Origin: a virus
IMG/VR virus record: IMGVR_UViG_3300044568_002423
Strand: one strand, 5' to 3'
Length of the DNA stretch: 64,000 nucleotides
Below, piece after piece: positions 6,442 to 51,513 of this stretch (the first letter of the stretch is position 1; each line of letters begins with the position of its first letter). The notes below the pieces were generated by a model, which was not told where the DNA came from, searched no databases, and saw nothing but the letters and a program-made list of their open reading frames with translations. The position numbers and the translations under genes are program-made.

Positions 6442-6729
6442 TTATCTTGTGTGAATATGAGGACATGCAATTGTGAAAAAAGTAATTTCTTTTTCACTTT
6501 CAAATCCTATGTTAGTATTATACACTATTGTATTGGTATTGTCAAGTGTTATTCCTTGTCCAATATAATATCTACTATTTAAGTTTTGCATTATCCATCC
6601 ATTGATAATTTTGATTAAATATGGATTGTATTTATTAAGAGTAAAATATTTGAAATGAGGACAAGCATATTTTACTCTCCTCAAATCGTAATAATTAAGT
6701 GAATTAGGAATGCCGTTTTTCAATGACAT
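6442..6729 (-). CDS. Hypothetical protein
   Basis: Start overlaps the stop of the VWA gene. Confidence 0.6.
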   Translation of the reverse strand: MSLKNGIPNSLNYYDLRRVKYACPHFKYFTLNKYNPYLIKIINGWIMQNLNSRYYIGQGITLDNTNTIVYNTNIGFESEKEITFFTIACPHIHTR

Positions 6730-7940: not shown

Positions 7941-7952
7941 ATCTATTCCTAA

Positions 7953-9035
7953 TTAGTTAGTAATTGCAGCTGATATATACTTTCCGTATTTTTTATGAAA
8001 TTCTGAAAAACATTTAATTTCATCTACATCTAATGGCAACTTATATGTATTTAAAGCAAGTTTGGTCCCCATGATGACTAATTCGGTTTCAAAATTTGCC
8101 ATCATAAATTCAAAGAAATTATCTACCTGCTTATTCCAATCCGCATCCTTACGTGATGCTGCATCTTTTAGTTCGTAGCATAATCCAACTGTCAATGAAT
8201 ACATTGCTGAAATTTCTTTATAATCAAGAGTTTTAACTTTGCCTTTCAATATATCAGATGGATTAGGTAGCTTGCCAGCTAATTTTTGATAAGCACCAAA
8301 TTTAATAGCAGTACCCTCACCAACAGAACCAGCAATTAATGTCATCAATGTATCTTCATCGGTGTCATCTTCTGTTAATAATTCACTAACGAAGCTCCAT
8401 GAACGAGGAGTTGAAAATGCTCGTGAACTAGATTTTGGATCAAAATCATATAAGTTCCCCTTTGACCAATTTAAAAATCCAACAATATTTTTATGTATTT
8501 TATTTTCAGTAGCCCATTCAAACCAATCATCAAATGAATGTGTCATTTCTAAATGAATGAAACGATTTGATAAAGGTGCTGGCATTCTATAAGTGACGCC
8601 TTTATCTGATTCACGATTACCAGCTGCAACAATAACAACATTGTCAGGTAAGACATATGTTCCAACTTTGCGATTTAACACTAGTTGATATGCCGCTGAT
8701 TGTACACTTGGTGCTGCAGAATTCATTTCATCTAAAAATAAAATGACCCGTTCAAATTGTGAAGCAAGTAGCAAGCTTGGCAATTCTTCTGGTGGTGCCC
8801 ACTTCATAGTTCCTGTTTTATCATCAAAATATGGAACACCCTTAATATCGGTCGGGTCCCATAAAGACAAACGAACGTCAATTACTAATGAATTAGATTC
8901 AACTCCAATTTGTTTAATAAGATCCGATTTACCAATTCCTGGAGGTCCCCAAATAAAAATAGGACGTTTAACTTTTAACGCTTTATTTAATGCTTTTTTG
9001 GCTGATTTAGGTCCTACTGAACGATTTTCACTCAT
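7953..9035 (-). CDS. MoxR-like AAA+ ATPase
   Basis: Walker A GPPGIGKS, Walker B ILFLDE, AAGN, PLSNRF; adjacent to the VWA gene. Confidence 0.85.
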   Translation of the reverse strand: MSENRSVGPKSAKKALNKALKVKRPIFIWGPPGIGKSDLIKQIGVESNSLVIDVRLSLWDPTDIKGVPYFDDKTGTMKWAPPEELPSLLLASQFERVILFLDEMNSAAPSVQSAAYQLVLNRKVGTYVLPDNVVIVAAGNRESDKGVTYRMPAPLSNRFIHLEMTHSFDDWFEWATENKIHKNIVGFLNWSKGNLYDFDPKSSSRAFSTPRSWSFVSELLTEDDTDEDTLMTLIAGSVGEGTAIKFGAYQKLAGKLPNPSDILKGKVKTLDYKEISAMYSLTVGLCYELKDAASRKDADWNKQVDNFFEFMMANFETELVIMGTKLALNTYKLPLDVDEIKCFSEFHKKYGKYISAAITN

Positions 9036-17366: not shown

Positions 17367-20039
17367 TTAATAACTGAATAAACTATCAATTGATGTTTTT
17401 TCATAAGTATTATGCAAATTCCAATCAAGTACCCCAATCAAATTTGATACTTTCTTGTCAATGATAACTGCTTCCATTTCAGCATGTTCAAATGGTAAAT
17501 CTTTAAACCATTGGGGCAATCTAAATTCATCAACTGGATATGCCACGCTGGTAAATCCAAGTGGATTATTTTTAAGTTTACAAACAATTACTTTGGCGCC
17601 ATCAATAATATTCATTGAATACTTGTCACCATACATTTGTTTTAATACATTCCAGTTAATACTAGCTCGTACATGCCCGGGCATATTTATTTTACCCTTG
17701 ACAGATTCTTTAAGTTGGTATTTGGTAATATTATTGGCTCGTTTTGGTGAACCTTTTTCCCATCCCGGCATTGCTTTAAACTTTGCTCGAAACTCAGTGA
17801 TATGCTGTAAGACTTGTTCTTCTGGGATACCAGTGAGCACTTGTTCTAATACTTCACTTAAAAAGTTTTGTACGAACTCCGGGGTATCACTTCTTTTAAG
17901 ATCCAATCCCATTGCTTTAATTTCACCAGCTTTGCCATTCGTATCTTTACGCTTTCCTTCTTTATCGTATACCAATACTGAATATCGTTTTTTGGTAATG
18001 AATAGTGCCTTACTACCTACAATTTCTCGACCGGCTTTGATAACATCCCCTCTAGAAGGTGGACAATGAAATGAGTTTAACATGAACTGTGAAAACGTAG
18101 TATTAACTTCTTCACCAATTTCATCATATAAATTAGCTATAGATTCTCTCGTCCATTCAACATTGCCAGCAATTATTTCATTTTTTAAAGTAGGATAAGC
18201 GGAGAAATAAACAGAATCGGTATCACAGTAAATGATTGCATCGCCAGTATGATTATATTGTCCAGTTATAATCTCGTTAACTTTTGCCGCCATATGTTTA
18301 TCAATTTGCTTGCCGGTCAGGGTAACGGATTGTCCTATTCTCTTATCATAAAATCGACAGCCTTGGTTAAGTATAGCACCATATAATGAATTTAGAACAA
18401 TCTTTTTAACTAACTGACGTTTATCCCAATATTCTTCCTGTTCCTTATCACCACTGGCGATTGCTTCTTTGAGTTTTTTCTGCATATCCTTACGTTCAGC
18501 ATACCATCGCTTTAACAGTCCTGGGATAATAGCTTCACGATCATAAGCAAATATAGTACCGTTGGCACTTAACATCCATGGTTGATTATTATCAAATATA
18601 AGTTGATATACTCTATCGGCACTAGCTACATCATTACCGCCATCTTCCCAATCAATTGTTATCTCTGTTTCAATTTCTCGATTCATTACTGCTTCATATT
18701 CTAATGACCCGAATAGTTTTTCCCAAGCAGAAGTTATTGACTTACCCTTGGCTTTTTCACCTTGAAGGTAAGCATCGGTCATTGTTTGTCTTAATTGTCC
18801 AACGATTGTTTCTGGACCCATGTTTAATGCACGAATAACTGATGGATAGAGAGAGTTTATATCTAATGACCCAAGCCAATCATGCATTCCTTTTTTAGGA
18901 TAAGCCACGTAAGCACCAGCAGCGCCATCATCTTCCGCAGATTTTCTTTCAGTCCTAACACGATTAGGAACTTGAAATCCCCTACGATGTGCTTCATTGA
19001 TAATAGACTGTTCCGTTACTGCTACTGCTCCCATTGTAGTTGGCAATAGGACGGTACTTTCATGTGCTAGAACATTTGCAATATCCATGAACTTAAGTTT
19101 TTTATCTAGTCTTTCCAACAGCATGGTATCTTGTCTATTATATTCAATAAACTTTTTGAAGTCATTATTGTATAATTGGTCAAGTGTGCCTTCGTACTGT
19201 GTTTTTCTTTCACCTAATTCATATTCAGCAATGGCATCTAACCGATAACTATGTCGTTCCTCATATGTATATTTTCGATATAATTCCAAACTATCTAAGT
19301 GAACTCGTCCAACTAAATCATAAGTGACAGCCGCCTTGCCATACTTTTCATATTCACGACGTTTTGGTAACTGATCCCATAAGCACATGCGTCTAGTATC
19401 ATTTTTACTTAACGCCTTTGTAATTCTATTAACGGTATATGGTATATCAAATCCTTCTGAATTCCACCCGCTAAGTACATCAGAATCTTTAATTAAGTCT
19501 AAGAACGTGTCAAGCATTTCAGCTTCTGTTGTGAACAATAACGTATTGGGAAACTCTGCTACTAGTTCAGTTGCTTCCTCCATGGATAATGTTTTTGGCG
19601 GCACCGCCAAGCAGACTAGTGTGTTTAGCCACTGTAAATATACAGCAATTGCTGTGATTGGCATAAATGCATCATCTGGCGAAGCATATCCACGTTCAGG
19701 GTCAAAATCGACCTCGATATCGTACCACGCTACGTTTAGTTTAGGCGCATCTTTGTTTAGATAATTATCACTTAAACAAACATAAACCGGATTGATGTCA
19801 GATTCAAATATTTGTTTATTGTTATTGATAGATAATTCTTTTCGAAATTCTTTTGAATTTTTACAAACAATCTTGGAAACAGGTTTTCCATATATTGATT
19901 GATATTTACCACGTGGGTCATCCACGTAGAAAGTTCGTTTGACTGGGTATTCTTTAAATATTCTTTCGCCTGATAGGCTTCGTTCAACAAGGTTAACAAT
20001 ATCTGTATCCTTGTCATAATATGCATCGACGTAACTCAT
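17367..20039 (-). CDS. polB: Family B DNA polymerase with 3'-5' exonuclease (T4 gp43-like)
   Basis: ExoI DIE, ExoII WNSEGFD, ExoIII YNRQD, DINSLYPS, KK..LNSLYG, YCDTDS, KKRY. Confidence 0.95.
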   Translation of the reverse strand: MSYVDAYYDKDTDIVNLVERSLSGERIFKEYPVKRTFYVDDPRGKYQSIYGKPVSKIVCKNSKEFRKELSINNNKQIFESDINPVYVCLSDNYLNKDAPKLNVAWYDIEVDFDPERGYASPDDAFMPITAIAVYLQWLNTLVCLAVPPKTLSMEEATELVAEFPNTLLFTTEAEMLDTFLDLIKDSDVLSGWNSEGFDIPYTVNRITKALSKNDTRRMCLWDQLPKRREYEKYGKAAVTYDLVGRVHLDSLELYRKYTYEERHSYRLDAIAEYELGERKTQYEGTLDQLYNNDFKKFIEYNRQDTMLLERLDKKLKFMDIANVLAHESTVLLPTTMGAVAVTEQSIINEAHRRGFQVPNRVRTERKSAEDDGAAGAYVAYPKKGMHDWLGSLDINSLYPSVIRALNMGPETIVGQLRQTMTDAYLQGEKAKGKSITSAWEKLFGSLEYEAVMNREIETEITIDWEDGGNDVASADRVYQLIFDNNQPWMLSANGTIFAYDREAIIPGLLKRWYAERKDMQKKLKEAIASGDKEQEEYWDKRQLVKKIVLNSLYGAILNQGCRFYDKRIGQSVTLTGKQIDKHMAAKVNEIITGQYNHTGDAIIYCDTDSVYFSAYPTLKNEIIAGNVEWTRESIANLYDEIGEEVNTTFSQFMLNSFHCPPSRGDVIKAGREIVGSKALFITKKRYSVLVYDKEGKRKDTNGKAGEIKAMGLDLKRSDTPEFVQNFLSEVLEQVLTGIPEEQVLQHITEFRAKFKAMPGWEKGSPKRANNITKYQLKESVKGKINMPGHVRASINWNVLKQMYGDKYSMNIIDGAKVIVCKLKNNPLGFTSVAYPVDEFRLPQWFKDLPFEHAEMEAVIIDKKVSNLIGVLDWNLHNTYEKTSIDSLFSY

Positions 20040-20930: not shown

Positions 20931-21515
20931 TTATGGTGCGGGTAGTGCTTTTTGATCACCAATTATCGCATCATAATGATCCATTGTTAATGTATCGCCT
21001 GTTTCGCTTAATTGAATTAGCATTTCAGTAACATTGTGTAAATCCATATCAGTTTTAGCATCTTCACGAGCATATTCCAATAAACGAATTAATAATGGAA
21101 TATCAACTTTTACAACATCTTGTTCATTGATATCTTCCATTGGTTCATTACTCATTAATCCTGGACCAACACCTCCAGAAAATCCACCTGAATGTCCAGG
21201 AATAGTATGTTCTTTCATTTGGACACGTTCGGCAATAACTTTAGCATATTGATGCATTAGTTGACGACTTTCGGCTTTTTTATTAAGTATTTCTTCTTCC
21301 GCTTCGGCGAAGTATTTTTTAAACAATGAAGGGGTACTTGTGATTTCTTTAATTGGTTCAGCATAATGTTGCATGGCCATTTGTATAGGTAAGCTAACCT
21401 TGTGAGGATTAGCTCCTTCTGTTACTATACTCATGAATTTTTTCATACTAGTAGAATCTTCCACTGACGTAGACGAACCTTTATCTAATGCCTGTAAAAT
21501 CTTCTTCATATCCAT
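20931..21515 (-). CDS. Putative internal head protein
   Basis: Multiple (I/L/V)-x-E-(A/G/S) motifs; late operon. Confidence 0.55.
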   Translation of the reverse strand: MDMKKILQALDKGSSTSVEDSTSMKKFMSIVTEGANPHKVSLPIQMAMQHYAEPIKEITSTPSLFKKYFAEAEEEILNKKAESRQLMHQYAKVIAERVQMKEHTIPGHSGGFSGGVGPGLMSNEPMEDINEQDVVKVDIPLLIRLLEYAREDAKTDMDLHNVTEMLIQLSETGDTLTMDHYDAIIGDQKALPAP

Positions 21516-22957
21516 TATTTTAAACCACTTAACATCTTAATAACTGATAATTCAGCACTTTCATTGATTGATTCTTTTTTAGCCAATGATGCTTTGCGTA
21601 CAGCTGCATCTTTTCGTTTTTTAGCTTTCATCCAATCTGCATTGCCTTTAGCAATCCCACTTTCATCATCTTCTTCATCGGCAGCACTAATGCTATCATC
21701 AGCAGCTTTCATTTTTCCAGATTGTCTTTCAGCGTGTGCTTCATGCCCTGCTTTTGAAAATGGACTTTCTTTCTTCCATGGTTTCAAGTTAAGTTCAGCT
21801 AATTGAGATTCATTGAACTCGCCAGGATGTTTTGCCGCCCATTCTTCTGGTGATGCTACTGGTTCATTAGTATTTAATTGTTGACCAGTTGCAGTAACCC
21901 CGCCTGATTGTTCCAAATGATCTTTTAACCAATTAATTCGATAATCAATTTGTGGTTCCCATTCAGTGCCAGCATATTGTTGTTTCATAGCTAGTAGTTG
22001 TTCTAGTTGACTAGGACCTTCTAACTCGGTATTTTCTTTAACTGCTTCTCTTTTAATGTTTTTCCACATCGCAGCAGCAGCAACAGCTTTTGGATCTTTG
22101 GCGCCGCTTTTCTTAGCAGCTTTTTCTACTTTTTCAAAACCTGGACCTTTTTTACCGATATCTTTACCAGCTTTAGCAGCTTTTACGGTAGCGGATTTCT
22201 TTTCAGCAGATAATCCAGCACTCGGTTTGGCTTCATCTAATTCCATAGATTTTTTATGTTTAACATCGCCAGCCTTAGCTGCCTTTTTCTTATCAGTATG
22301 AACGCCAGCACCACTTGTGGTAGCTTTTGCATTTTTCGCTACAAAATTACGAGGTTTTACAAATTCTTCTTCCTTAGCTTCTTCTACTTTTTTAGATTTA
22401 GTAGCACCTGCGATTTTATCCGCATATGTAATTTTATCTTTAGGTGGAGCAAGAGCGGCAAATTTCTTATTTTTAGCAGAAGTTTCTTTCATACAAGTTT
22501 CTTCTTTCTTTCCAGCCATTTTTTCAGCTTGAAGTTTCTTAAGTTTAGAAACTTTATCTTTAGCTTCCATCAGCATAGAGGACATTGCTTGTTTTTGACT
22601 TTCTGAAAGAACGTCACTGTCAGATAATTTTTGTCCATATTCGCTGATTTTCATTTCATATTCTAGATAATGATATACAGATGCTATATAGTCAGCAGCT
22701 TTAGTGACTTTTGCTTGAACCCATGATTCAAATTGGTCATTGTCTTCTATTTTCTTAAATAATTTGTAGCTATATTGTGCTAATTTAAATAAATCAGCTT
22801 TAACCATCGCTCCTTCATTGTCGATAGAACCATCAGGCAATAATCCAGCAGTTGGTTCAGCAGGCATATCAGCAGAAGGTGCTATTTGTGATGGCATGTC
22901 AGCAGGCATCGCCCCTGACATATCTAATTCGCTAAGTTGTTTGGTTGTACGTTCCAT
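21515..22957 (-). CDS. Putative internal head/core protein, K/A/E-rich
   Basis: Many gp21-type cleavage motifs; C-terminal INESAEL..IKMLSGLK; GATAAATA at 22978-22985. Confidence 0.6.
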   Translation of the reverse strand: MERTTKQLSELDMSGAMPADMPSQIAPSADMPAEPTAGLLPDGSIDNEGAMVKADLFKLAQYSYKLFKKIEDNDQFESWVQAKVTKAADYIASVYHYLEYEMKISEYGQKLSDSDVLSESQKQAMSSMLMEAKDKVSKLKKLQAEKMAGKKEETCMKETSAKNKKFAALAPPKDKITYADKIAGATKSKKVEEAKEEEFVKPRNFVAKNAKATTSGAGVHTDKKKAAKAGDVKHKKSMELDEAKPSAGLSAEKKSATVKAAKAGKDIGKKGPGFEKVEKAAKKSGAKDPKAVAAAAMWKNIKREAVKENTELEGPSQLEQLLAMKQQYAGTEWEPQIDYRINWLKDHLEQSGGVTATGQQLNTNEPVASPEEWAAKHPGEFNESQLAELNLKPWKKESPFSKAGHEAHAERQSGKMKAADDSISAADEEDDESGIAKGNADWMKAKKRKDAAVRKASLAKKESINESAELSVIKMLSGLK

Positions 22958-22980: not shown

Positions 22981-23259
22981 TTATCTTCTTTTAATTACTA
23001 TTGCTTCATTAGTAGGAGCACCAAACAGACTGGTTCCTTTGATATCTAATGCATTTTTAGCAGTGCCTTGGGCTGTTTTAGGTTGAACTACTTTTGGTTG
23101 TGGGGGTGCTGTAGTTCCACTTTTTCCAGGAGATCCAATATAAGATTTTTTACCTCTAGCCTTTCCTGGACTTAATTGTGGAGCTGTCACTGTTCCGATA
23201 TTAGCGGAGCTAGTCGCACCAGCAGTAGCTGTTTCACCTAATATTTCTATTATTTTCAT
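22981..23259 (-). CDS. Putative internal virion protein
   Basis: N-terminus MKIIEILGE. Confidence 0.6.
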   Translation of the reverse strand: MKIIEILGETATAGATSSANIGTVTAPQLSPGKARGKKSYIGSPGKSGTTAPPQPKVVQPKTAQGTAKNALDIKGTSLFGAPTNEAIVIKRR

Positions 23260-23268
23260 ATTCTTTCC

Positions 23269-23532
23269 TTAAGGCACATTAGGTCGAGTAAACCATAACT
23301 CGAACCATTCTGGGGTGCCTGCTTTTATATCTTGTTCTCTTTGTATTTTCCCACGGTCATCTGAAAATACTGGTGTTTGATTAGCACGATATTCTTGTAT
23401 TCGTGCGTCAGCGCCTAATCCGCCCATATAAGCAGACAGTTTTAATTCTTGAATTGGATCATCTGGGGCTAGATAGCAATCATCTGGACTGTCGGTGGTT
23501 AAATCGGCTGAGGTAATACGATATTGCTTCAT
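23269..23532 (-). CDS. Hypothetical protein
   Basis: Coupled to upstream gene. Confidence 0.6.
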   Translation of the reverse strand: MKQYRITSADLTTDSPDDCYLAPDDPIQELKLSAYMGGLGADARIQEYRANQTPVFSDDRGKIQREQDIKAGTPEWFELWFTRPNVP

Positions 23533-24248
23533 TATATGCCGTATTTGTTCTTTTTAATCTTTGCTACTGGGCTAGTCTTATATGTATCATCTAATTCTAC
23601 ACTGCGATTTGATGATAGTCTTTTCAATGGTCCTACATCTGTTTGTTTACCAGCAAACTTTACCATTTCCCATTCTTCATCAGTATAGGTAGTTAATAAT
23701 GGATCTCCACCAATATCATTAACTGCTTTGGTTGGAAATTCAGGAGCACCAGCTAATGCTAATCCAAACCGATATGACTTATACGAATCTCCGGCATTAT
23801 TGTTCGCCGCTGGGGTTGTTATTGCCCCTTTTATACTACTTGTAGCAGTTTTTGAAAGTTTTTTAACGCCGCCTTCTTTAAGAAAAGTATCATACATATC
23901 CTGCATGGCTTCTTCTAAATTAAACGCATCTAGATTTTTTTGTGGAGTTTTAGAATTTACATCAGGGGTTGAATTTTGTTTAGTAATTATTCCCACACCA
24001 GCGCATTCCTCATTACGAGGGCGGGTACGTGTTTTAAATTTTCTACCAGTCTTCTTTAATAAATTCCAAGGATTATTCAAGTCATGTCTGCCAGTTTTCT
24101 TTCTAGCAAACATACTCAATTCTTCATCGGCAATTATATCAGACTCTTCTTTTTTACCCATTGGATTGGCTACTTCTTCCAAATTGCCATCATGTTTAAG
24201 GATATTATATAATCCTTCTAAAAGCTCAGTTACTTTAAAACCATCCAT
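23532..24248 (-). CDS. Putative internal virion protein
   Basis: KVTELLEG, NLEEV, NLEEA, FLKEG motifs. Confidence 0.6.
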   Translation of the reverse strand: MDGFKVTELLEGLYNILKHDGNLEEVANPMGKKEESDIIADEELSMFARKKTGRHDLNNPWNLLKKTGRKFKTRTRPRNEECAGVGIITKQNSTPDVNSKTPQKNLDAFNLEEAMQDMYDTFLKEGGVKKLSKTATSSIKGAITTPAANNNAGDSYKSYRFGLALAGAPEFPTKAVNDIGGDPLLTTYTDEEWEMVKFAGKQTDVGPLKRLSSNRSVELDDTYKTSPVAKIKKNKYGI

Positions 24249-24266: not shown

Positions 24267-24794
24267 TTATTCTAGATATTCACCTACTATATCAAAGAAT
24301 TTTAGTACTCTATTATTTATTTTAATTTCAGTATCGGCAGAAATCCCTGCTACTTCACTGAATAATTTCCTATCACCTTGTTGAACTGCCTTCCGTAAAT
24401 CTGTAGCAGAACTTATCCTAGGTGTAGGTTGTTGGCTAATATTATCAAATTTGTAATAACCATGACTTCCAGCAAATCCATTGTATTTTGATAGTTGCGT
24501 GGTTAACCAGTCTTCATCAGTACATATTTTTAATTCAATATGTTCACCAAATTTATCATAAATGGTAGCTGCCAAAGTAAACAAACTTTTCTCTGGAATA
24601 ACATGCTCGGCAATTTCAGGAAGTAATGCTTCCATTGTTTTCAATTTAACATCGTATGGTAGTGGGTTGGTTGGTCCATTGGTAGATGGATTAGTACCCA
24701 CGTAATAGTTGTCAAACTGCGATGCTGTTTCCCATGCTTCTTTATGTCCTTTGTGCGGCGGATTAAACCTACCAAAGCATACACCAATTTTCAT
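24267..24794 (-). CDS. HIGH-superfamily nucleotidyltransferase (cytidylyl/adenylyltransferase-like)
   Basis: FGRFNPPHKGH, NPL, SSAT.LR; ATGA overlap with upstream gene. Confidence 0.85.
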   Translation of the reverse strand: MKIGVCFGRFNPPHKGHKEAWETASQFDNYYVGTNPSTNGPTNPLPYDVKLKTMEALLPEIAEHVIPEKSLFTLAATIYDKFGEHIELKICTDEDWLTTQLSKYNGFAGSHGYYKFDNISQQPTPRISSATDLRKAVQQGDRKLFSEVAGISADTEIKINNRVLKFFDIVGEYLE

Positions 24795-25867
24795 GGTAGC
24801 CACCTATGTCTAGGTACTAACTTAATATTTCCAAATGGTGTGTTACTATACCTAACCCATCCTTCAGAATTACTAGTGGTGATATCACCCGCGGTATCAC
24901 CTAATTGGTCAATTATTGCATTTTTTAATTCTATTATGTATTTAACCAAATTAAACATAATTGTTACACTACCTTGATATTGATTTACACGATTTTTAAT
25001 CTTTATTTGTTGAGTTGGACTAATTTTACTTGATTCCAACCATGATACAAAATCATCACCAACGGTATCTAATTGATGTTGTTTTGCTTTATAATTCATA
25101 TATCTATACAGATAATCCTTAAATGCAGCTACTCCCTGAATAGGTTCAAGGAAACTATCTAATAAATCAGCATTATCAATGATATACTGTTCAACTTCAT
25201 TTATTTTTTTATGGTTTAATACAGGTTGACTGGTAGCATAGTGTGGACCTAATATAATTAACTCATTAGATACAAATTCTGAAAAATCATCCTTTGGTAT
25301 TTGGGCATCGTCCATCATACCAAATTCTGGGAAATAAGCATGTCCTACTACCATCACAGCTGCTTTTTCAATCACCGATCCCAATATAGAATATTGGTCT
25401 ATATGATATCCCGTTTTTTTATTAGGATATAAATTATACCGATTATTTTCTACGCTAGGATGTGATGTAAATAAGGCATCGCCATACACAAATCCAACAA
25501 AATCTAACGGAGTTGCCACATCAAACGCCTGATATAAATTAGCAAATTCTGCTGCGAACTTAATTCGTTCAATCTTTTCCAAGTCAGTCTTTGGATCACC
25601 TGATTGATTAACGATAAAATCAAACAATTCCGCGCCCGAGCATGTCTTAATACCTCTTGCCCAACTATTATGTCCGGACAGGATTAATGGTCCATTAACA
25701 TATTCTCGTCCCCAATAAATTTGTAATCCACCATCCCATTTCATACGAACAGAACTGGCATCTTCATTTATCTCATTGATATGTCGTAATGCTTCTGTTG
25801 CACCAGCGGAACCGTAGAAGAAAGTCAAATCTTCTAAGTGATTAAATGCCCTGCCTAATTTTTTCAT
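24791..25867 (-). CDS. Ligase/capping-enzyme-fold nucleotidyltransferase-like protein
   Basis: Motif I-like MKWDG, motif III-like VYGDAL, motif IV-like SEGWV, motif V-like IKLVPR. Confidence 0.6.
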   Translation of the reverse strand: MKKLGRAFNHLEDLTFFYGSAGATEALRHINEINEDASSVRMKWDGGLQIYWGREYVNGPLILSGHNSWARGIKTCSGAELFDFIVNQSGDPKTDLEKIERIKFAAEFANLYQAFDVATPLDFVGFVYGDALFTSHPSVENNRYNLYPNKKTGYHIDQYSILGSVIEKAAVMVVGHAYFPEFGMMDDAQIPKDDFSEFVSNELIILGPHYATSQPVLNHKKINEVEQYIIDNADLLDSFLEPIQGVAAFKDYLYRYMNYKAKQHQLDTVGDDFVSWLESSKISPTQQIKIKNRVNQYQGSVTIMFNLVKYIIELKNAIIDQLGDTAGDITTSNSEGWVRYSNTPFGNIKLVPRHRWLP

Positions 25868-26517
25868 ATATTATATGTATTTTTTATGTGTTGAGTTTTA
25901 ATAGGATCATGAATTACGCCTTTTAGTAATCTAGATGGAGATCTCATATCATATTCAGTTGCTGTTGGACTGATAATAATTTTAGCTATCTCGTATGGAT
26001 CATTTGATATTAGTGTTCTCTTATCTCGAGTTAACAATCCTCTGTACGGACTAATCATCAAATTGCCAGATGTAAGATTTGCCAAATCACACCATATACT
26101 AACAATTGTTTTTCCTGTTACAGATGAATCATCATAATTGTGGTCATGTAAATATGCTATCGTGGAGGCATTTTCGACTGTCATTAAATCAACTTGAATA
26201 ATTTCATCATCAACTTGGATACCTACATGAACGCTAACGCCGGTTCGTGCGGAAAATAATCCCTTTGATTTAAAATACTCTTCTAATAATTTACGACTTA
26301 ATTTTACTGCTGTTGATGGGAATATTGAAAGTAAATCAGCGCTATCTATTAAAAGATCGATATCTCCACTGATTTCTTTTTTGCCAGCACTGCCAAAAGG
26401 ATAAATGTGTAGTCCTTCTGGTAATACTTCTTTTAGGGTTTTAATTGCTTGGTTGTATTTGTTTTTCGCTATTGGGCTAGCGTTTGGTACTACCTTTCCG
26501 CTCATCGTACTTACCAT
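25864..26517 (-). CDS. Pol-beta superfamily nucleotidyltransferase (start may be 26505)
   Basis: FGSAGKKEISGDIDLLI (GS..DxD) plus third Asp in IQVDLM. Confidence 0.75.
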   Translation of the reverse strand: MVSTMSGKVVPNASPIAKNKYNQAIKTLKEVLPEGLHIYPFGSAGKKEISGDIDLLIDSADLLSIFPSTAVKLSRKLLEEYFKSKGLFSARTGVSVHVGIQVDDEIIQVDLMTVENASTIAYLHDHNYDDSSVTGKTIVSIWCDLANLTSGNLMISPYRGLLTRDKRTLISNDPYEIAKIIISPTATEYDMRSPSRLLKGVIHDPIKTQHIKNTYNI

Positions 26518-26875
26518 CTGTTATTTGTTGACAGACCTCTTCGTGCAATTTATTACAGAGTTCATTACATAACTTATCATCTAATGATTCTGGTAATTCT
26601 CGAATAGGATATTCAGCTAAGTACATATCATAACATTCACGAACTGCTTTGTCAAATATATGTGGTTTGGTTGATTTGTTGGCGTTAATACGATCTACGC
26701 ATTTTAATATACTTGGATGTAAATGTCGACGATATGCTTCATCATTGTTATTCATATAAAATACCAAATCTTCCACAAGATCATAATCAATCTCTCGTTT
26801 CCCCTCATCCCCAATTTGCTTGACAAATCCAATATCTGCAAAATTGCTGTTTTCTAATAATTCTATAATACGCAT
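26477..26875 (-). CDS. Hypothetical, putative virion protein
   Basis: N-terminus MRIIELLE; first gene after a late promoter. Confidence 0.6.
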   Translation of the reverse strand: MRIIELLENSNFADIGFVKQIGDEGKREIDYDLVEDLVFYMNNNDEAYRRHLHPSILKCVDRINANKSTKPHIFDKAVRECYDMYLAEYPIRELPESLDDKLCNELCNKLHEEVCQQITDGKYDERKGSTKR

Positions 26876-26881
26876 AGTTTA

Positions 26882-26920
26882 AGTCCAGTTAATAATATGT
26901 ATTTATCTATTAACTGGACT
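26882..26920 (-). promoter_or_regulatory. 13-bp inverted repeat enclosing late promoter GATAAATA and covering the RBS
   Basis: AGTCCAGTTAATA...TATTAACTGGACT with GATAAATA (26900-26907) in the loop. Confidence 0.7.
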
Positions 26921-26935
26921 ACATTTGTAATTAAC

Positions 26936-29203
26936 TTACAGTACTAATTCGGTATTATCAACCGTTAATGGTTGCTTTGATTTCTTAGGAGCTTTTGGAA
27001 CAGTAGCTAGCGCAATCTTATCATCCACTATGGTAATAGACAACCATCCACCATCTTTCAAATCACCAAATAGCATCATTTTAGCAAGATCTCTTTTGAT
27101 TTCAGCATCAATGACACGTTGTAATGGCCTAGCTCCCATCTTGGGATCAAATCCTTTTTCAATTAACCAATTAATAGCAGTTTTATCTATCTTTATGCGT
27201 ATTGCTTTTTCTTTAACTTGATCACGCAATTCATCGATAAACTTATTAACGATTTTTGTCATGGTTTCTTTACCAAGTTTATTAAAGGTAATGATACCAT
27301 CTAATCTATTTCGAAATTCAGGAGTGAAAAACTTCTTAATTTCCACATCAGTGTGTTCTTTTTCTTGCTTACCAAACCCGATGTTATTCTTCTCAGCTGC
27401 TTGTGCACCAGCATTCGTGGTAAGAATTAATACCAAATTACGACAATCTGCTTGTTTACCATTACTACCAGTAATAAATCCATTGTCCATAATTTGTAGT
27501 AAAACTGTCGACACATCTGGGTGAGACTTTTCAACTTCGTCAAACAACAAGACTGCGTTTGGATTTTCTTGTATTTGAGTAATCAACAACCCTGCGTTGT
27601 CTTCAAATCCAACATATCCAGGTGGGCTACCGATCAATTTACTAATACTATGTTTTTCCTGATATTCACTCATATCAAATCGTAATAATTTAGTACCAAG
27701 ATGCTTAGCAAGTGCTTTTGCTGTTTCTGTTTTTCCACAGCCAGTTGGTCCCATAAATACAAAACTACCAATTGGTTTATTATCAGGTTTTAATCCTGCT
27801 TGCGCTACCATAATTTTATCGACAACTTCTGTAAGAGCACCATTTTGACCATATACTTCATTTTCAAGTTTTTCCTGAAGAGTAGATAGACAATGGCTTT
27901 CTGTTTCCATAACTTGTTCTTCTGGCAGATTAACCATTTTAGCTAATTCATATTGAATTTCTCTTTCTGTTACAATACGAGCCTCTGCCAATTTTAAATT
28001 AAATCGTGAACAAGCACAATCAATCAAATCTATTGCTTTATCTGGTAACTTCTTATCTGCTTGGTATTTAACAGATAACTTAATTGCAGCCTGAAGCGCA
28101 TCATCTTTGATTTTAACATCATGATGAGTTTCATAATATTTTTTAATTCCTTTTAGGATTTTTAATGCCATTTCTTCCGTTGGCTCATCGATAGTAATAC
28201 GTTGAAAACGACGCATTAACGCACGATCTTTTTCAAAATGCTTACGATATTCCTCCCATGTAGTAGAGGCAATTACTTTGATTTTACCTTTACTCAATGC
28301 TGGTTTCATCATGTTAGCAAGATCATTAGCTGAATTTGATGATGATCCAGCTCCGCTAATCATATGTGCTTCATCGATAAATAGAACACATTTACCTTTC
28401 TTCTCTAATGCTTTTATTACTTGTTTGAAGCGTTCTTCAAAGTCACCTCGATATTTACTACCAGCTACCATTGCGGAAATATCTAAATTAAAAACAGTAT
28501 ATTCCTTTAAAAAATCTGGTACAGCACCGTTGACTATATTATAAGCTAATCCTTCGGCAATGGCAGTTTTACCTACCCCGGGATCACCTATTAAAATAAC
28601 GTTATTTTTACTACGACGACCTAACGCAAGTGCGATGTTTTCAAGTTCATCAACACGCCCAATGACGGGGTCGATCTTGTTCTTTTGGACTAATCCATTT
28701 AGATCAGTAGTATATGCCAATAATGCTTTTGTTGCCCGTGGGTCGGTAGTATCAGCTTCTTCAATAACATTCCCAGCAGTTGTGAGATAATCTGCAAATT
28801 TGTCCTTGTCGATGCCAGACTGTGATACGTAAAAGAAAGCCCAGCTACGTTTTTCATTAAGCATCGTTAAAAAGATGTCAGTGATTTCGACTTTTTGCCG
28901 GCTATTAAAAATAACTTGTGTGAATGCTTTGTTTAATAACCTCTCAACTGCAGCTGTTTTTTTAGGGTTGGCAACAGCTGAAGACAGAGTTATGTCATTA
29001 CACTTGTGCTGTAGATGATCCGAGACTAATTTCTTAAGACCATTGGCATCCGCACCAAATTCAAGTAATTGTTCTACAAAATCTTTATTATTAAGCATAG
29101 CAGCTAATATATGTTCGATCGTAATATATTCATGTTGCAATCGTTTGGCTGTTTCAGAAGCTCTACGTAATACTTCTTCAAAATCTGCGCTTGGTTCTAC
29201 CAT
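26936..29203 (-). CDS. clpA: ClpA-like ATP-dependent Clp protease ATP-binding subunit
   Basis: Clp N-domain, two AAA modules (GDPGVGKT, GPTGCGKT), KYRG pore loop, IGF ClpP-docking loop, no ClpB middle domain. Confidence 0.9.
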   Translation of the reverse strand: MVEPSADFEEVLRRASETAKRLQHEYITIEHILAAMLNNKDFVEQLLEFGADANGLKKLVSDHLQHKCNDITLSSAVANPKKTAAVERLLNKAFTQVIFNSRQKVEITDIFLTMLNEKRSWAFFYVSQSGIDKDKFADYLTTAGNVIEEADTTDPRATKALLAYTTDLNGLVQKNKIDPVIGRVDELENIALALGRRSKNNVILIGDPGVGKTAIAEGLAYNIVNGAVPDFLKEYTVFNLDISAMVAGSKYRGDFEERFKQVIKALEKKGKCVLFIDEAHMISGAGSSSNSANDLANMMKPALSKGKIKVIASTTWEEYRKHFEKDRALMRRFQRITIDEPTEEMALKILKGIKKYYETHHDVKIKDDALQAAIKLSVKYQADKKLPDKAIDLIDCACSRFNLKLAEARIVTEREIQYELAKMVNLPEEQVMETESHCLSTLQEKLENEVYGQNGALTEVVDKIMVAQAGLKPDNKPIGSFVFMGPTGCGKTETAKALAKHLGTKLLRFDMSEYQEKHSISKLIGSPPGYVGFEDNAGLLITQIQENPNAVLLFDEVEKSHPDVSTVLLQIMDNGFITGSNGKQADCRNLVLILTTNAGAQAAEKNNIGFGKQEKEHTDVEIKKFFTPEFRNRLDGIITFNKLGKETMTKIVNKFIDELRDQVKEKAIRIKIDKTAINWLIEKGFDPKMGARPLQRVIDAEIKRDLAKMMLFGDLKDGGWLSITIVDDKIALATVPKAPKKSKQPLTVDNTELVL

Positions 29204-29222
29204 TATTATTTCCTATGTTATG

Positions 29223-30050
29223 TTAAATGTTATTAATTTCGTTATTTAATAATATTAATTTATTAATTAAATCGATATTCTTAATTATTGGTGTCTTTAT
29301 TTTTACGATAGAGATAAAATCCCCTGCCTGACCAGTATGTACATTGGTAAATCCACCACCTTGTTTTGCAAATTCAACTCCCGTTTCGACTCCTGCTCTA
29401 ATATCGAGAGAAACTACCAGTCCGGATAGCATCTTGACTTGTTTTTTACATCCAATCATAGCTTCGATTGGACTTATTTCAATGTTAGTATAAACATTAT
29501 TACCTTTTCTTATATAATTACTATCTGGTGTTACATTAATAGTTACATTAAGACTGCCGCGAGGTATTCCTGGTAATGAATCATCACCAAGCCCTTGGTA
29601 TTGTATTGTATCACCGTGTTCAACTCCGGCTGGCACGTTTATAACTATACTCTGATGTTTGCCACTTGGCAAGGTATATTTTGCTTCGAGTTGTTTTCCC
29701 GTATATGAATCTATAAAAGATACTTCACAATTCATATTTAAATCCCTATTACGCCGTACCTGTTGTGGTTGTTGATGTCTAAAGATATCAAATGGATTAC
29801 CACCAAATATATCGTGAAAGTGATGGTGTGCATATGGATTATTGCTATTTCCATATAATTGTTTATTATCATATTCAGCACGTTTGGTCGGGTCGCCTAA
29901 AATATCATAGGCGGCTGAAATATCTTTAAATTTTTCTTGCGAACCACCTTTATCAGGATGGTGTTGATTGGCTAATTTTCGATAAGCTAGTTTAATTTCG
30001 TCTTGTTGAGCGTTTTTATCAACGCCTAATGTTTGATAGTGATCTGTCAT
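29223..30050 (-). CDS. dnaJ: DnaJ-class (CbpA-like, no zinc finger) co-chaperone
   Basis: J-domain HPD motif, DnaJ C-terminal domains. Confidence 0.85.
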   Translation of the reverse strand: MTDHYQTLGVDKNAQQDEIKLAYRKLANQHHPDKGGSQEKFKDISAAYDILGDPTKRAEYDNKQLYGNSNNPYAHHHFHDIFGGNPFDIFRHQQPQQVRRNRDLNMNCEVSFIDSYTGKQLEAKYTLPSGKHQSIVINVPAGVEHGDTIQYQGLGDDSLPGIPRGSLNVTINVTPDSNYIRKGNNVYTNIEISPIEAMIGCKKQVKMLSGLVVSLDIRAGVETGVEFAKQGGGFTNVHTGQAGDFISIVKIKTPIIKNIDLINKLILLNNEINNI

Positions 30051-35567: not shown

Positions 35568-35957
35568 TTAATACATTGGTTGACTAAAATCAAATGTTTG
35601 TGTTGTTTGTTGATTTGATTGCCCCAAATACGCATCTGTTGGGCATTCATCACTAATCATCATTATAGATTTATTTTCCACACGACGAACTTCTATTTCT
35701 TCACCATCTGGTGTCTTGATCGTAATTCCTCGTGTCCATCTGCCATGTTCTACAAGTATCCAATCACCGACATTTACATCAGTTTGTATTTTACCAACCG
35801 CATATACCTTAGCCCATCTGGGTTTTATCCCTTCACTTTTGCCATTGTCGCTATTGATAATAATACCACTGGCGGTCTTTTGTTCGGCAAAGTTCATTCC
35901 AGTGACCAGTATACCATCTTGAATTGGTGTTAATTTATTACATGTTATAGCAGTCAT
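35568..35957 (-). CDS. groES: GroES-like co-chaperonin
   Basis: P..D.ILV, KTASGII mobile loop, VYAVG, V.VGD.IL. Confidence 0.85.
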   Translation of the reverse strand: MTAITCNKLTPIQDGILVTGMNFAEQKTASGIIINSDNGKSEGIKPRWAKVYAVGKIQTDVNVGDWILVEHGRWTRGITIKTPDGEEIEVRRVENKSIMMISDECPTDAYLGQSNQQTTQTFDFSQPMY

Positions 35958-36284: not shown

Positions 36285-36788
36285 TTATCTTAAAAATTCT
36301 TGCCATTCTAATTTATATTTAATGCTGTGTATTTTATGAACACCTATTAGATATAAGACAAAACTAGCAACACTTGAACCTCTACCAACACCCCATACTA
36401 TGTTATTTTCCATACAGGTATCAACGAAATATTTAAGCCATTGTAATAATCCAGTCATATTTCTAGTAGAAAATTGTTCTAATTCCTCAAATACCCTAGC
36501 TTTTTCCTCCACGGTAGAGCATTTTGATATACAATATGCTTGAATATCAAACTCATAATATTTTGAAGGCATGAACCATTTATTTTGATTAATAGTGTCC
36601 ATTTCTGCAATTGATAAATCTTCCAATATGGGTGATAAAAAATTAGTATTGGTTATTGTTTCGAATTGAGTTATGTCTGGTGAGCGTTCCACCATAAGAT
36701 CGGTAAGTTTCGACGTATGTCCCTGATACAGGAAATTAAATACGTCGACTTCGTTGAATATTGGGTTGTTAAATTTATCTAATCGCAT
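36285..36788 (-). CDS. DNA polymerase III alpha (DnaE) fragment-like protein
   Basis: R..EEL..., WGVGRGSSVASFVLYLIGVH.I..IKY.L....FL; ends before the catalytic DxD. Confidence 0.7.
   Translation of the reverse strand: MRLDKFNNPIFNEVDVFNFLYQGHTSKLTDLMVERSPDITQFETITNTNFLSPILEDLSIAEMDTINQNKWFMPSKYYEFDIQAYCISKCSTVEEKARVFEELEQFSTRNMTGLLQWLKYFVDTCMENNIVWGVGRGSSVASFVLYLIGVHKIHSIKYKLEWQEFLR

Positions 36789-41091: not shown

Positions 41092-41092
<1 letters not shown>
40712..41092 (-). CDS. Small tail protein with gp9/gp10-like N-terminus
   Basis: INIG..PND.SGD.IR.AF.KVN.NF; P..GDLWYD motif. Confidence 0.7.

Positions 41093-51513
<10,421 letters not shown>

What the first reader, a model, noticed from the sequence alone, without database searches (positions are those of the whole stretch)
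24267..26517. Late operon combining three unrelated nucleotidyltransferase folds (Pol-beta, KxDG ligase-like, HIGH): candidate undescribed system
Seen: three translationally coupled genes (ATGA overlaps) carry (i) GS..DxD...D Pol-beta motifs, (ii) KWDG / GD / EGWV / KLVPR matching motifs I, III, IV and V of covalent Lys-NMP ligases and capping enzymes, and (iii) HxGH plus SSAT.LR. They follow a late promoter and lie among proteins with capsid-targeting-like N-termini. Established: these are three independent solutions to NMP transfer. Inference: they form one pathway, for example tRNA/RNA end repair against host anticodon nucleases, NAD+ or nucleotide-cofactor regeneration against NAD-depleting defences, or signal or protein nucleotidylation, possibly delivered in the virion. 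I cannot match the trio to a named system.
Basis: partly seen in the sequence, partly recalled or inferred. Interest (0 to 1): 0.8.

Follow-up and report, generated by a model that had tools for sequence, protein, structure and literature searches.

The report
Phage polymerase-X, ligase-like, NMNAT-like enzyme module
A jumbo phage carries three overlapping genes (a miniature family-X-like polymerase, a new ligase-like enzyme family known only as DUF6267, and an NMNAT-like adenylyltransferase) that recur together and are fused into single proteins in many marine and freshwater phages, which points to an undescribed nucleic-acid break-repair kit.

Summary
Three minus-strand genes are joined by ATGA overlaps, and their motifs are invariant across relatives.

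- **Gene 1** folds (pLDDT 94) as the palm plus thumb of family-X DNA polymerases. The ASFV Pol X match has Z 10.0 and covers 158 of 176 residues.
- **Gene 2** is Pfam DUF6267. It folds (pLDDT 92) as a covalent-nucleotidyltransferase domain, and the 12 best solved matches are all RNA or DNA ligases (Z 5.3-6.8).
- **Gene 3** is a HIGH nucleotidyltransferase whose nearest solved relatives are NMN adenylyltransferases.

- The genes are adjacent in most of 80 viral contigs.
- All three are present in a complete 364-kb genome.
- 44 of the 148 listed family clusters are natural fusions, including triple fusions and one that adds a HAD phosphatase.

The ligase-HIGH pair is also present in 90 sequenced phage records, mostly T4-like cyanophages, which lack any canonical ligase. 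Many relatives carry a T4-type capsid-targeting leader, and the cyanophage HIGH protein was found in virions. This window's three proteins lack that leader.

The most likely function is gap filling and sealing of broken DNA, but the substrate and cofactor are unproven. No publication on the family was found.

The parts
25864..26505 (-). Minimal family-X-polymerase-like nucleotidyltransferase (213 aa from ATG 26505; the ORF is open from 26517). Catalytic GS...DxD...D.
   Evidence: Invariant G42 S43 S50 D52 D54 D110. AF2 pLDDT 94.3. Foldseek PDB: Pol lambda, beta and mu, E about 1e-6, TM 0.53-0.58 over about 200 columns. VIA: the top 8 are all family-X polymerases, Z 9.6-10.4, including ASFV Pol X 5hr9 at Z 10.0, rmsd 3.3, 158 aligned.
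24791..25867 (-). DUF6267 ligase-like covalent nucleotidyltransferase (358 aa). Candidate motifs: I RMKWDG (K43), III GFVYGD, IIIa VVGHAYF, IV EGWVRY, V KLVPR. A helical bundle of about 100 aa sits between IIIa and IV. No OB domain.
   Evidence: Pfam PF19782, 41.8 bits against a cut-off of 27. Invariant columns. AF2 pLDDT 92.4. VIA wide: ranks 1-12 are all ligases (NgrRnl 5cot Z 6.8, TbREL1 6.7, T4 Rnl2 6.5, Trl1 5.8, DNA ligases 5.3-5.6), 160-185 residues aligned. BFVD: family members first, then RNA and DNA ligases.
24267..24794 (-). HIGH-superfamily nucleotidyltransferase, NMNAT-like (175 aa from ATG 24794). Motifs GRFNPPHKGH and SSATDLR.
   Evidence: Pfam CTP_transf_like 22.3 against 21. 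PHROG 'cytidyltransferase' 3e-14. TIGR00125 29.2 against 27.7. A profile search of PDB sequences gives NMNATs as the best matches (MJ0541, NadR, 2qjt; E 7e-4 to 2e-3), over the N-terminal part only.
26477..26875 (-). 132-aa protein of unknown function at the head of the operon, with a T4 capsid-targeting-like N-terminus (MRIIELLENS). It overlaps the next gene by 29 nt.
   Evidence: Conserved just upstream of the trio in L002/L003 (57% identity) and L001 (31%). Leader motif, compared with T4 IPII and IPIII MKTYQEFIAEA. No Pfam or PHROG family.
23532..24248 (-). 238-aa downstream protein. Its segments occur as C-terminal tails fused to the HIGH enzyme in relatives.
   Evidence: tblastn hits inside the 281-aa HIGH gene of L001 and in L002/L003. 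The tails of P0440, P0484, P0488 and P0493 align with its AGVGIITKQN... and ...KKNKYGI segments.
22981..23532 (-). Two small downstream genes (87 aa and 92 aa). The 92-aa protein has a capsid-targeting-like N-terminus (MKIIEILGET).
   Evidence: ORFs. The 87-aa gene is conserved in L001-L003. Leader.
26875..26920 (-). 13-bp perfect hairpin upstream of the 132-aa gene, with GATAAATAC in its loop. A possible but unconfirmed late-promoter or regulatory element.
   Evidence: Sequence read. Exact TATAAATA is absent here and not enriched in the window.

Best explanation
The three genes encode one functional unit that mends broken nucleic acid, most likely nicked or gapped DNA.

Proposed steps:
1. The family-X-like enzyme (palm plus thumb only, as in ASFV Pol X) adds one or a few nucleotides to a 3'-OH to fill a gap.
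2. The DUF6267 enzyme takes AMP onto Lys43 of RMKWDG, passes it to the 5'-phosphate and seals the nick. Its inserted helical bundle stands in for the OB or other nucleic-acid-binding domain of known ligases.
3. The NMNAT-like HIGH enzyme serves the ligase's adenylyl chemistry. The simplest version is that the ligase uses NAD+ and the HIGH enzyme remakes NAD+ from the released NMN plus ATP.

In many relatives the enzymes carry a T4-type capsid-targeting leader, so there the kit is probably packed into the head and delivered with the DNA. In this window's lineage the leader sits only on the flanking small proteins.

Shown here: the folds, the conserved catalytic residues, the gene linkage and the fusions. 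Inferred: the substrate (DNA or RNA), the cofactor, the role of the HIGH enzyme and packaging.
For: Folds:
- Gene 1: family-X polymerases fill the top of both fold searches over palm and thumb. Other Pol-beta-type enzymes align over the palm only, about 90 residues.
- Gene 2: the 12 best of 48,161 chains are all polynucleotide ligases.
- Both models have pLDDT above 92.

Linkage:
- The trio with 4-nt overlaps is present in three diverged lineages.
- Among 80 IMG/VR loci, the polymerase lies next to the ligase in about 51 and the HIGH gene in about 50.
- In a 100%-complete 364-kb genome all three genes are present, although the HIGH gene lies 120 kb away.

Fusions among the 148 listed clusters at 50% identity:
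- 26 Pol-Lig, 5 Lig-Pol, 7 Lig-HIGH, 5 Pol-Lig-HIGH and 1 HIGH-Pol-Lig.
- 12 further proteins have a FxPPHxGH or HxGH motif in a segment the HMMs left unassigned.
- One fusion reads HIGH + HAD phosphatase (FDLDDTL...ILTAR...YDD) + Pol + Lig, which fits 3'-end healing.

DNA context:
- In cyanophages the pair lies among uvsX, gp41, mazG and nrd genes.
- P-TIM40, S-PM2 and Melnitz have no PF01068, PF01653 or PF09414 ligase. The lack of a g30 ligase in cyanomyoviruses is recorded in PMC2984593.

Precedent: ASFV pairs a minimal Pol X with its own ligase for base excision repair (PMC9353306).

Packaging:
- T4 IPII and IPIII begin MKTYQEFIAEA.
- 84 of 120 ligase relatives begin like MRAREFLKEA and 67 of 98 HIGH relatives like MRLRQLFEAP.
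- The cyanophage HIGH proteins begin MRFRQFIIEA or MRFLDFIKEA, and the S-SZBM1 HIGH protein was detected in purified virions (PMC9146016).
Against: - There is no biochemical evidence for any family member.
- The ligase fold match is only moderate (Z 6.8). The Foldseek PDB search was not significant (best E 0.08). There is no sequence-level link to known ligases.
- Motif V has one lysine, not the usual KxK, and there is no OB domain.
- The best ligase matches are RNA ligases (Z 6.5-6.8 against 5.3-5.6 for DNA ligases), though that gap is near the tool's 1-Z tie margin, so RNA repair is not excluded.
- The complete jumbo genome G001 also has a canonical ATP-dependent DNA ligase, so DUF6267 is not simply the replicative ligase there.
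- NMNAT similarity is weak (E about 1e-3, N-terminal part only), and the NAD+ idea is pure inference.
- About a third of loci lack an adjacent polymerase or HIGH gene.
- The window's own three proteins lack the leader. The cyanophage ligase was not among the virion proteins listed in the paper's main text.
Confidence: 0.5

Rival explanations
1. This is an RNA (tRNA) repair module. The Pol-beta-type enzyme restores nucleotides lost from a cleaved RNA 3' end, as RlaP does. The DUF6267 enzyme is an RNA ligase that reseals the break made by host anticodon nucleases.
For: The best structural matches of the ligase-like protein are RNA ligases: NgrRnl, TbREL1, T4 Rnl2 and Trl1. Pairing of a Pol-beta-type NTase with RNA ligases is a known theme in jumbo phages (PMC7824862), and RlaP adds 1-2 NMP to damaged RNA (bioRxiv 10.64898/2025.12.29.696909). 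A HAD phosphatase fusion also fits RNA end healing.
Against: Gene 1 has no PF10127 (RlaP) match. Its thumb matches DNA polymerases X, not RNA-specific NTases, which align over the palm only. No polynucleotide kinase or P-loop was found in any fusion. No tRNA genes lie in the window. In cyanophages the context is DNA replication genes. RNA ligases lead DNA ligases by about 1 Z, near the tool's tie margin.
Confidence: 0.2
2. In T4-like cyanophages, and perhaps here, DUF6267 is simply the missing replicative DNA ligase that joins Okazaki fragments. The other two genes are accessory.
For: Cyanomyoviruses lack g30 (PMC2984593). Three such genomes have no other ligase domain. The gene lies beside replication genes.
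Against: A complete jumbo genome with the module also has a canonical ATP-dependent ligase. Most jumbo-phage relatives carry a capsid-targeting-like leader, which a replisome enzyme would not need. Host LigA can serve T4-like phages (statement in PMC2984593).
Confidence: 0.12
3. The module works on nucleotide cofactors or modifies proteins or small molecules, not nucleic acid. Examples are NAD+ resynthesis against NAD-depleting defences, or AMPylation or nucleotide-signal chemistry delivered from the virion.
For: The HIGH enzyme's nearest solved relatives are NMNATs, and some sources name relatives NMNAT. The cyanophage HIGH protein is packed in virions. A DUF6267 plus Cu/Zn superoxide dismutase fusion cluster exists, hinting at a stress-protection cargo.
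Against: A palm-plus-thumb family-X architecture and a ligase fold with all nucleotide-binding motifs point to polynucleotide substrates. Known phage NAD pathways use Nampt, Nudix or kinase partners (PMC7824862), and none was detected in the fusion proteins scanned.
Confidence: 0.1
4. The module is an mRNA 5'-capping-like guanylyltransferase plus a tailing polymerase, as in poxviruses.
For: KxDG enzymes include capping enzymes. The vaccinia capping enzyme appears in the fold list at Z 4.6. Poly(A) and poly(U) polymerases are Pol-beta-type.
Against: Ligases outrank capping enzymes throughout. Tailing enzymes align only over the palm of gene 1. No triphosphatase or methyltransferase partner was found in the fusions.
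Confidence: 0.03

Closest known systems
African swine fever virus base-excision-repair pair: Pol X (pO174L, 174 aa) plus ATP-dependent ligase (pNP419L)
   Same: A virus-encoded minimal polymerase X with palm and thumb only is paired with the virus's own ligase. The model of gene 1 aligns with 158 of 176 residues of ASFV Pol X at Z 10.0.
   Different: There is no detectable sequence homology. The ligase here is a different family (DUF6267, with a helical insert and no OB or DNA-binding domain). A third HIGH enzyme is added. No AP endonuclease was identified. This is a phage, not a eukaryotic virus.
Rnl2/Rnl5-type nick-sealing RNA ligases (T4 Rnl2, T. brucei REL1, Naegleria NgrRnl) and ATP-dependent DNA ligases
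   Same: The adenylyltransferase fold is shared (Z 5.3-6.8), as are the order of motifs I, III, IIIa, IV and V and an invariant KxDG lysine.
   Different: No sequence-level similarity. Motif V is KLVPR rather than KxK. A helical bundle of about 100 aa is inserted before motif IV. There is a family-specific invariant N-terminal block, GRxFNHxEDL.
RlaP (PF10127) Pol-beta NTase associated with RNA ligases in RNA-repair operons
   Same: The logic is shared: a Pol-beta-superfamily enzyme encoded next to, or fused with, a ligase.
   Different: Gene 1 does not match PF10127, and its fold is closest to DNA polymerases X.
Cyanophage 'cytitidyltransferase' (T4-GC 190) and its neighbour T4-GC 71 / Pfam DUF6267
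   Same: True homologues of genes 3 and 2. P-TIM40 gp182 scores 434 bits on PF19782, with gp183 next to it. In S-PM2 the two are partly fused.
   Different: Cyanophages show no detectable copy of gene 1. Their HIGH protein is longer (about 360 aa) and carries the capsid-targeting-like leader. Both families remain uncharacterised.
NMN adenylyltransferases of the NadM/NadR type
   Same: The GRFxPxHxGH motif and a C-terminal S..T.LR motif are shared, and these are the best solved sequence matches.
   Different: Scores lie far below every NCBIfam NMNAT equivalog cut-off. The alignment covers only about 55 N-terminal residues.

Membership tests
Covalent nucleotidyltransferase superfamily (polynucleotide ligases and capping enzymes) | Motif I KxDG with the nucleotide-accepting lysine | tested here: met
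   RMKWDG, with K43, D45 and G46 invariant in 26 sequences.
Covalent nucleotidyltransferase superfamily (polynucleotide ligases and capping enzymes) | Nucleotidyltransferase-domain fold | tested here: met
   In the VIA wide search, ranks 1-12 of 48,161 chains are all ligases, Z 5.3-6.8 with 160-185 residues aligned. Foldseek was not significant, so support is moderate.
Covalent nucleotidyltransferase superfamily (polynucleotide ligases and capping enzymes) | Motifs III, IIIa, IV and V in order, with motif V KxK | tested here: inconclusive
   Candidates GFVYGD, VVGHAYF, EGWVRY and KLVPR lie in the right order on beta strands. Motif V has a single Lys (K349), with R353 instead of the second Lys. 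No residue-level structural alignment was available.
Covalent nucleotidyltransferase superfamily (polynucleotide ligases and capping enzymes) | Formation of a covalent enzyme-NMP intermediate | not testable with these tools
   Needs a labelled ATP, NAD+ or GTP adduct assay.
ATP-dependent DNA ligases / capping enzymes (minimal core) | C-terminal OB domain after motif V | tested here: not met
   The protein ends 9 residues after K349 of motif V. The model shows no OB fold, only a helical bundle at 219-322.
Pfam DUF6267 (PF19782) | Score above the gathering cut-off | tested here: met
   41.8 bits against 27. All close relatives are pre-annotated PF19782.
Family X DNA polymerases | Catalytic aspartate triad in a GS...DxD...D palm | tested here: met
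   G42 S43, D52, D54 and D110 are invariant. From memory, GSAGKKEISGDIDLLI resembles Pol beta GSFRRGAESSGDMDVLL with a one-residue deletion.
Family X DNA polymerases | Palm plus thumb architecture | tested here: met
   The top 8 VIA hits are family X at Z 9.6-10.4 with 158-177 residues aligned. Foldseek gave E about 1e-6.
Family X DNA polymerases | Sequence-profile membership (Pfam Pol X palm, thumb or fingers models) and the 8-kDa and fingers domains | tested here: not met
   No Pfam Pol X model matched at E <= 0.1. At 213 aa the protein has no room for the 8-kDa and fingers domains, as in ASFV Pol X. I therefore call it 'family-X-like', not a proven member.
Family X DNA polymerases | Template-directed DNA synthesis | not testable with these tools
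   Needs a primer-extension or gap-filling assay.
RlaP (PF10127) | Match to the family profile | tested here: not met
   No hit at E <= 0.1.
HIGH-signature nucleotidylyltransferases (CTP_transf_like) | (H/T)xGH motif and profile score above the cut-off | tested here: met
   PPHKGH. PF01467 scored 22.3 against 21 and TIGR00125 29.2 against 27.7.
NMN adenylyltransferase (NadM/NadR/NadD equivalogs) | Score above an equivalog cut-off | tested here: not met
   The best score was 20.2 bits against cut-offs of 112-341. NMNATs are only the nearest solved relatives.
T4-type capsid-targeted internal proteins | N-terminal leader of about 10 aa resembling MKTYQEFIAE, ending in (L/I)xE | tested here: not met
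   The window's three enzymes start MSGKVVPN, MKKLGRAF and MKIGVCFG. The leader is present on the flanking 132-aa and 92-aa proteins, and on 84 of 120 ligase relatives and 67 of 98 HIGH relatives.

The most novel reading that the evidence does not exclude
DUF6267 is a new family of polynucleotide ligase that takes its AMP from NAD+. The partnered or fused NMNAT-like enzyme regenerates that NAD+ on the spot. Together with the first phage-encoded family-X polymerase it forms a repair kit that is packed into the capsid through a T4-type targeting leader and injected with the genome. The kit mends sunlight- or oxidant-induced breaks before replication starts. In T4-like cyanophages it is also the long-missing DNA ligase.
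Probability: 0.15. Interest if true: 0.85.

Novelty: new variant of a known kind. Interest (0 to 1): 0.72.

Why it matters
DUF6267 and the neighbouring 'cytitidyltransferase' are common in T4-like cyanophages and jumbo phages, which are among the most abundant viruses in the ocean. The pair has been carried in annotations for some twenty years with no function assigned.

If DUF6267 is a ligase, three things follow:
- It would explain how cyanomyoviruses manage without a recognisable DNA ligase, a question left open in PMC2984593.
- It would add a new branch to the ligase and capping-enzyme superfamily, with an unusual domain plan.
- Together with gene 1 it would give the first family-X-type polymerase in phages. 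A 2022 review of phage polymerases names only ASFV for viruses (PMC8775771).

The natural triple fusions are ready-made single-chain 'fill and seal' enzymes of possible use as tools. If the kit really is delivered from the capsid, it would be a new class of ejected phage protein: genome-repair enzymes rather than anti-defence or takeover factors.

Tried and rejected
- Sequence searches gave no name. PHROGs and NCBIfam had nothing for genes 1 and 2. phmmer against PDB gave only noise for gene 2 and a weak MNT hit for gene 1.
- hhalign of the DUF6267 profile against T4 Rnl2 gave no signal.
- The Foldseek PDB search for gene 2 was not significant, although ligases led the list.
- blastn and tblastn of the window's genes 1 and 2 against 50,697 phage records found nothing at default settings. 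Only a more typical fusion protein (P0284) and a relaxed E-value showed the cyanophage relatives.
- 'DUF6267' and 'cytitidyltransferase' returned no papers.
- The nearest cultured relatives by DNA polymerase, Atu_ph07 and Phosso, lack a detectable DUF6267 gene and show only a weak N-terminal NTase match.
- The HIGH homologue in E. coli jumbo phages stands alone beside a methyltransferase, so not every HIGH homologue belongs to the module.
- The idea that DUF6267 replaces the replicative ligase everywhere was dropped, because a complete jumbo genome has both.
- A P-loop polynucleotide kinase was sought in all unassigned fusion segments and not found.
- Pfam found no family in the other extra fusion segments or in neighbouring genes.
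- The T4 late-promoter consensus is neither upstream of the operon nor enriched in the window. Sigma-70-like and terminator-like sites are at chance level.
- The window's whole genome is not held, so I could not test whether this phage has a canonical ligase elsewhere. None is among the window ORFs I scanned.
Full report
**What the window is.** The 64-kb window belongs to a large T4-related phage.
- Its family-B DNA polymerase (17367-20039, minus strand) is 44-50% identical to those of the jumbo phages Phosso, Atu_ph07 and the 121Q group.
- Nearby genes include a clamp-loader subunit, a 5'-3' exonuclease, PhoH, GroES, DnaJ, a ClpA/B-type ATPase and a 3,472-aa ORF.
- No whole genome is held for the window.

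**The observation.**
- Relatives and the sequence place the true starts of the first and third genes at ATG 26505 and ATG 24794.
- Both junctions are then ATGA overlaps.
- A conserved 132-aa gene upstream overlaps the first gene by 29 nt.
These are real catalytic signatures, not chance strings.

**Gene 1 (213 aa).**
- Sequence searches give only a weak MNT-type hit.
- The AlphaFold model is confident, at pLDDT 94.3.
- Foldseek against the PDB gives DNA polymerases lambda, beta and mu at E about 1e-6 over about 200 columns.
- In an exhaustive comparison with 48,161 chains, the top eight hits are all family-X polymerases at Z 9.6-10.4. They include the 174-aa ASFV Pol X at Z 10.0, rmsd 3.3 A, 158 residues aligned.
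- Terminal uridylyl-, CCA-, cGAS- and MenT-type enzymes align over the palm only, about 90 residues.
- The protein is therefore a palm-plus-thumb, family-X-like enzyme. No Pfam Pol X or RlaP model matches it, so I call it family-X-like rather than a member.
- A 2022 review of phage DNA polymerases names only ASFV as a viral family-X example (PMC8775771). The jumbo-phage survey PMC7824862 does not mention Pol X.

**Gene 2 (358 aa).**
- It belongs to Pfam DUF6267, at 41.8 bits against a cut-off of 27.
- The model has pLDDT 92.4.
- Foldseek against the PDB is not significant, though DNA ligase IV and T4 Rnl1 and Rnl2 lead the list.
- In the exhaustive search, ranks 1-12 are all polynucleotide ligases: NgrRnl 6.8, TbREL1 6.7, T4 Rnl2 6.5, Trl1 5.8 and DNA ligases 5.3-5.6. 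Alignments run from the N-terminal sheets to the C-terminal strands and cover 160-185 residues.
- Against viral models, family members come first, followed by RNA and DNA ligases.
- The invariant RMKWDG, GFVYGD, VVGHAYF, EGWVRY and KLVPR follow the order of ligase motifs I, III, IIIa, IV and V.
- The family departs from known ligases in four ways:
  - motif V has a single lysine;
  - there is no OB domain;
  - a helical bundle of about 100 aa sits before motif IV;
  - there is an invariant N-terminal block, GRxFNHxEDL.
- No sequence-level link to a known ligase was found.

**Gene 3 (175 aa).**
- It passes the Pfam and TIGRFAM cut-offs for HIGH-type nucleotidyltransferases.
- It matches PHROG 'cytidyltransferase' families.
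- A profile of the family finds NMN adenylyltransferases (MJ0541, NadR, Francisella NadM) as the nearest solved proteins. The E-values are only about 1e-3 and the alignment covers the N-terminal motif region only.

**Are the three genes one unit?** Yes, on several lines of evidence.
- *Synteny.* The same three genes in the same order, with 4-nt overlaps, occur on contigs from three lineages whose ligase genes are 50-59% identical to the window's.
- *Adjacency.* In 80 IMG/VR loci, the polymerase lies next to the ligase in about 51, the HIGH gene in about 50, and both in about 25.
- *Co-presence.* In a 100%-complete 364-kb genome the polymerase and ligase are adjacent. The HIGH gene lies 120 kb away, so all three are still present.
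- *Fusions.* A profile search of 1.8 billion representatives found 862 clusters. Among the 148 listed, my HMMs found 26 Pol-Lig, 5 Lig-Pol, 7 Lig-HIGH, 5 Pol-Lig-HIGH and 1 HIGH-Pol-Lig fusions.
- *More HIGH domains.* Pfam and motif checks found further HIGH domains in segments the HMMs left unassigned.
- *A phosphatase fusion.* One protein (P0280) reads HIGH, a HAD phosphatase with a canonical FDLDDTL motif, Pol, then Lig.
- *Origin.* All the contexts examined are phage, and the ESM Atlas clusters are 97-100% viral.

**Wider distribution.**
- A fusion protein used as query finds the ligase-HIGH pair in 90 sequenced phages. These are mostly T4-like cyanophages, plus Pelagibacter and Methylophilales phages.
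- P-TIM40 gp182 scores 434 bits on PF19782 and sits beside the 'cytidyltransferase' gp183.
- In S-PM2 the two are partly fused.
- In these cyanophages the pair lies among uvsX, gp41, mazG and nrd genes.
- P-TIM40, S-PM2 and Melnitz contain no ATP-dependent ligase, NAD-dependent ligase or Rnl2-type ligase domain.
- This matches the published remark that cyanomyoviruses lack a g30 ligase homologue, 'or have distant homologues not yet identified' (PMC2984593).
- The complete jumbo genome G001, however, has both DUF6267 and a canonical ATP-dependent ligase. In jumbo phages the family therefore has a role beyond bulk replication.

**Packaging.**
- T4 IPII and IPIII begin MKTYQEFIAEA. [quoted passage not shown]
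- Of 120 close ligase relatives, 84 begin with a very similar leader such as MRAREFLKEA. Of 98 HIGH relatives, 67 begin MRLRQLFEAP or similar.
- Cyanophage HIGH proteins begin MRFRQFIIEA or MRFLDFIKEA.
- The S-SZBM1 cytidylyltransferase and the protein encoded just downstream were detected in purified virions (PMC9146016).
- In this window the three enzymes lack the leader. Only the flanking 132-aa and 92-aa proteins have it.
- Delivery from the capsid is thus likely for many relatives but unproven here.
- The 'late promoter' could not be confirmed.

**Mechanism.** The best-supported reading is a fill-and-seal repair unit.
1. The family-X-like enzyme extends a 3'-OH.
2. The DUF6267 enzyme seals the nick through Lys43-AMP.
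3. The HIGH enzyme supports the adenylyl chemistry, possibly by recycling NMN to NAD+.

DNA is the more likely substrate, for three reasons:
- the family-X thumb;
- the replication-gene context in cyanophages;
- the ASFV precedent of a minimal Pol X paired with a viral ligase (PMC9353306).

RNA repair of the RlaP plus RNA-ligase kind remains a serious rival. RNA ligases top the fold list, and the HAD fusion suits either substrate. Cofactor or protein modification, and capping plus tailing, are less likely. No step has been tested biochemically.

**Novelty.**
- The parts are known folds, and pairing a polymerase X with a ligase has precedents.
- The ligase family is uncharacterised and structurally unusual.
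- A family-X-type enzyme has not been described in phages.
- The third HIGH partner, the triple fusions and the capsid-targeting leaders have no described counterpart.
- I rate this as a new variant of a known kind, with high interest.
- The scan had noted this same stretch once before (e1-5739631).

Noticed in passing
window 26936-30050 (-) and 35568-35957 (-): The phage encodes its own chaperone set just upstream of the module: a DnaJ (275 aa), a ClpA/ClpB-type double-AAA ATPase (755 aa) and a GroES (129 aa). The DnaJ-Clp pair lies in the same place before the module in L001 and L002.
   Followed up: partly
ESM Atlas cluster; no window coordinates: A cluster of 65 viral proteins fuses DUF6267 to a Cu/Zn superoxide dismutase domain. 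This hints at a link with oxidative stress or at virion cargo.
   Followed up: no
L009 3998-5777 (Synechococcus phage S-PM2, p141/p142): The DUF6267 gene is split. p141 holds the N-terminal half, and the annotated 'cytidyltransferase' p142 holds the C-terminal half fused to the HIGH domain. In the other S-PM2 record (LN828717) one tblastn piece spans both, so a frameshift or sequencing difference is likely.
   Followed up: partly
window 23532-24248 (-) and 21515-22957 (-): The downstream proteins carry short modules such as AGVGIITKQNSTPDVN and ...KKNKYGI (weak DUF3008 and DUF7230 matches). These recur as C-terminal tails on HIGH enzymes of other phages. A modular, possibly protease-processed family travels with the module.
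   Followed up: partly
window 41092-51510 (-): A single ORF of 3,472 aa. I did not examine it.
   Followed up: no
window 6729-9035 (-): A pair of genes: a DUF2201 metallopeptidase/VWA-like protein (403 aa) and a MoxR-type AAA ATPase (360 aa).
   Followed up: no
window 36285-36788 (-): A 167-aa ORF matches only the start of the DNA polymerase III alpha NTPase domain (PF07733, positions 22-94), in a phage that has an intact family-B polymerase.
   Followed up: no
L098 (G001:C1:223978-224535) and L047: The complete 364-kb IMG/VR jumbo phage carries a canonical 444-aa ATP-dependent DNA ligase as well as the Pol-X-like and DUF6267 genes. The two kinds of ligase-fold protein coexist.
   Followed up: yes
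L010 4983-5516 (Escherichia phage vB_EcoM_E9.1): E. coli jumbo phages of the 121Q/PBECO4 group have a stand-alone homologue of the HIGH enzyme (HMM E 3e-28) next to a DNA methyltransferase. No DUF6267 gene was detected.
   Followed up: partly
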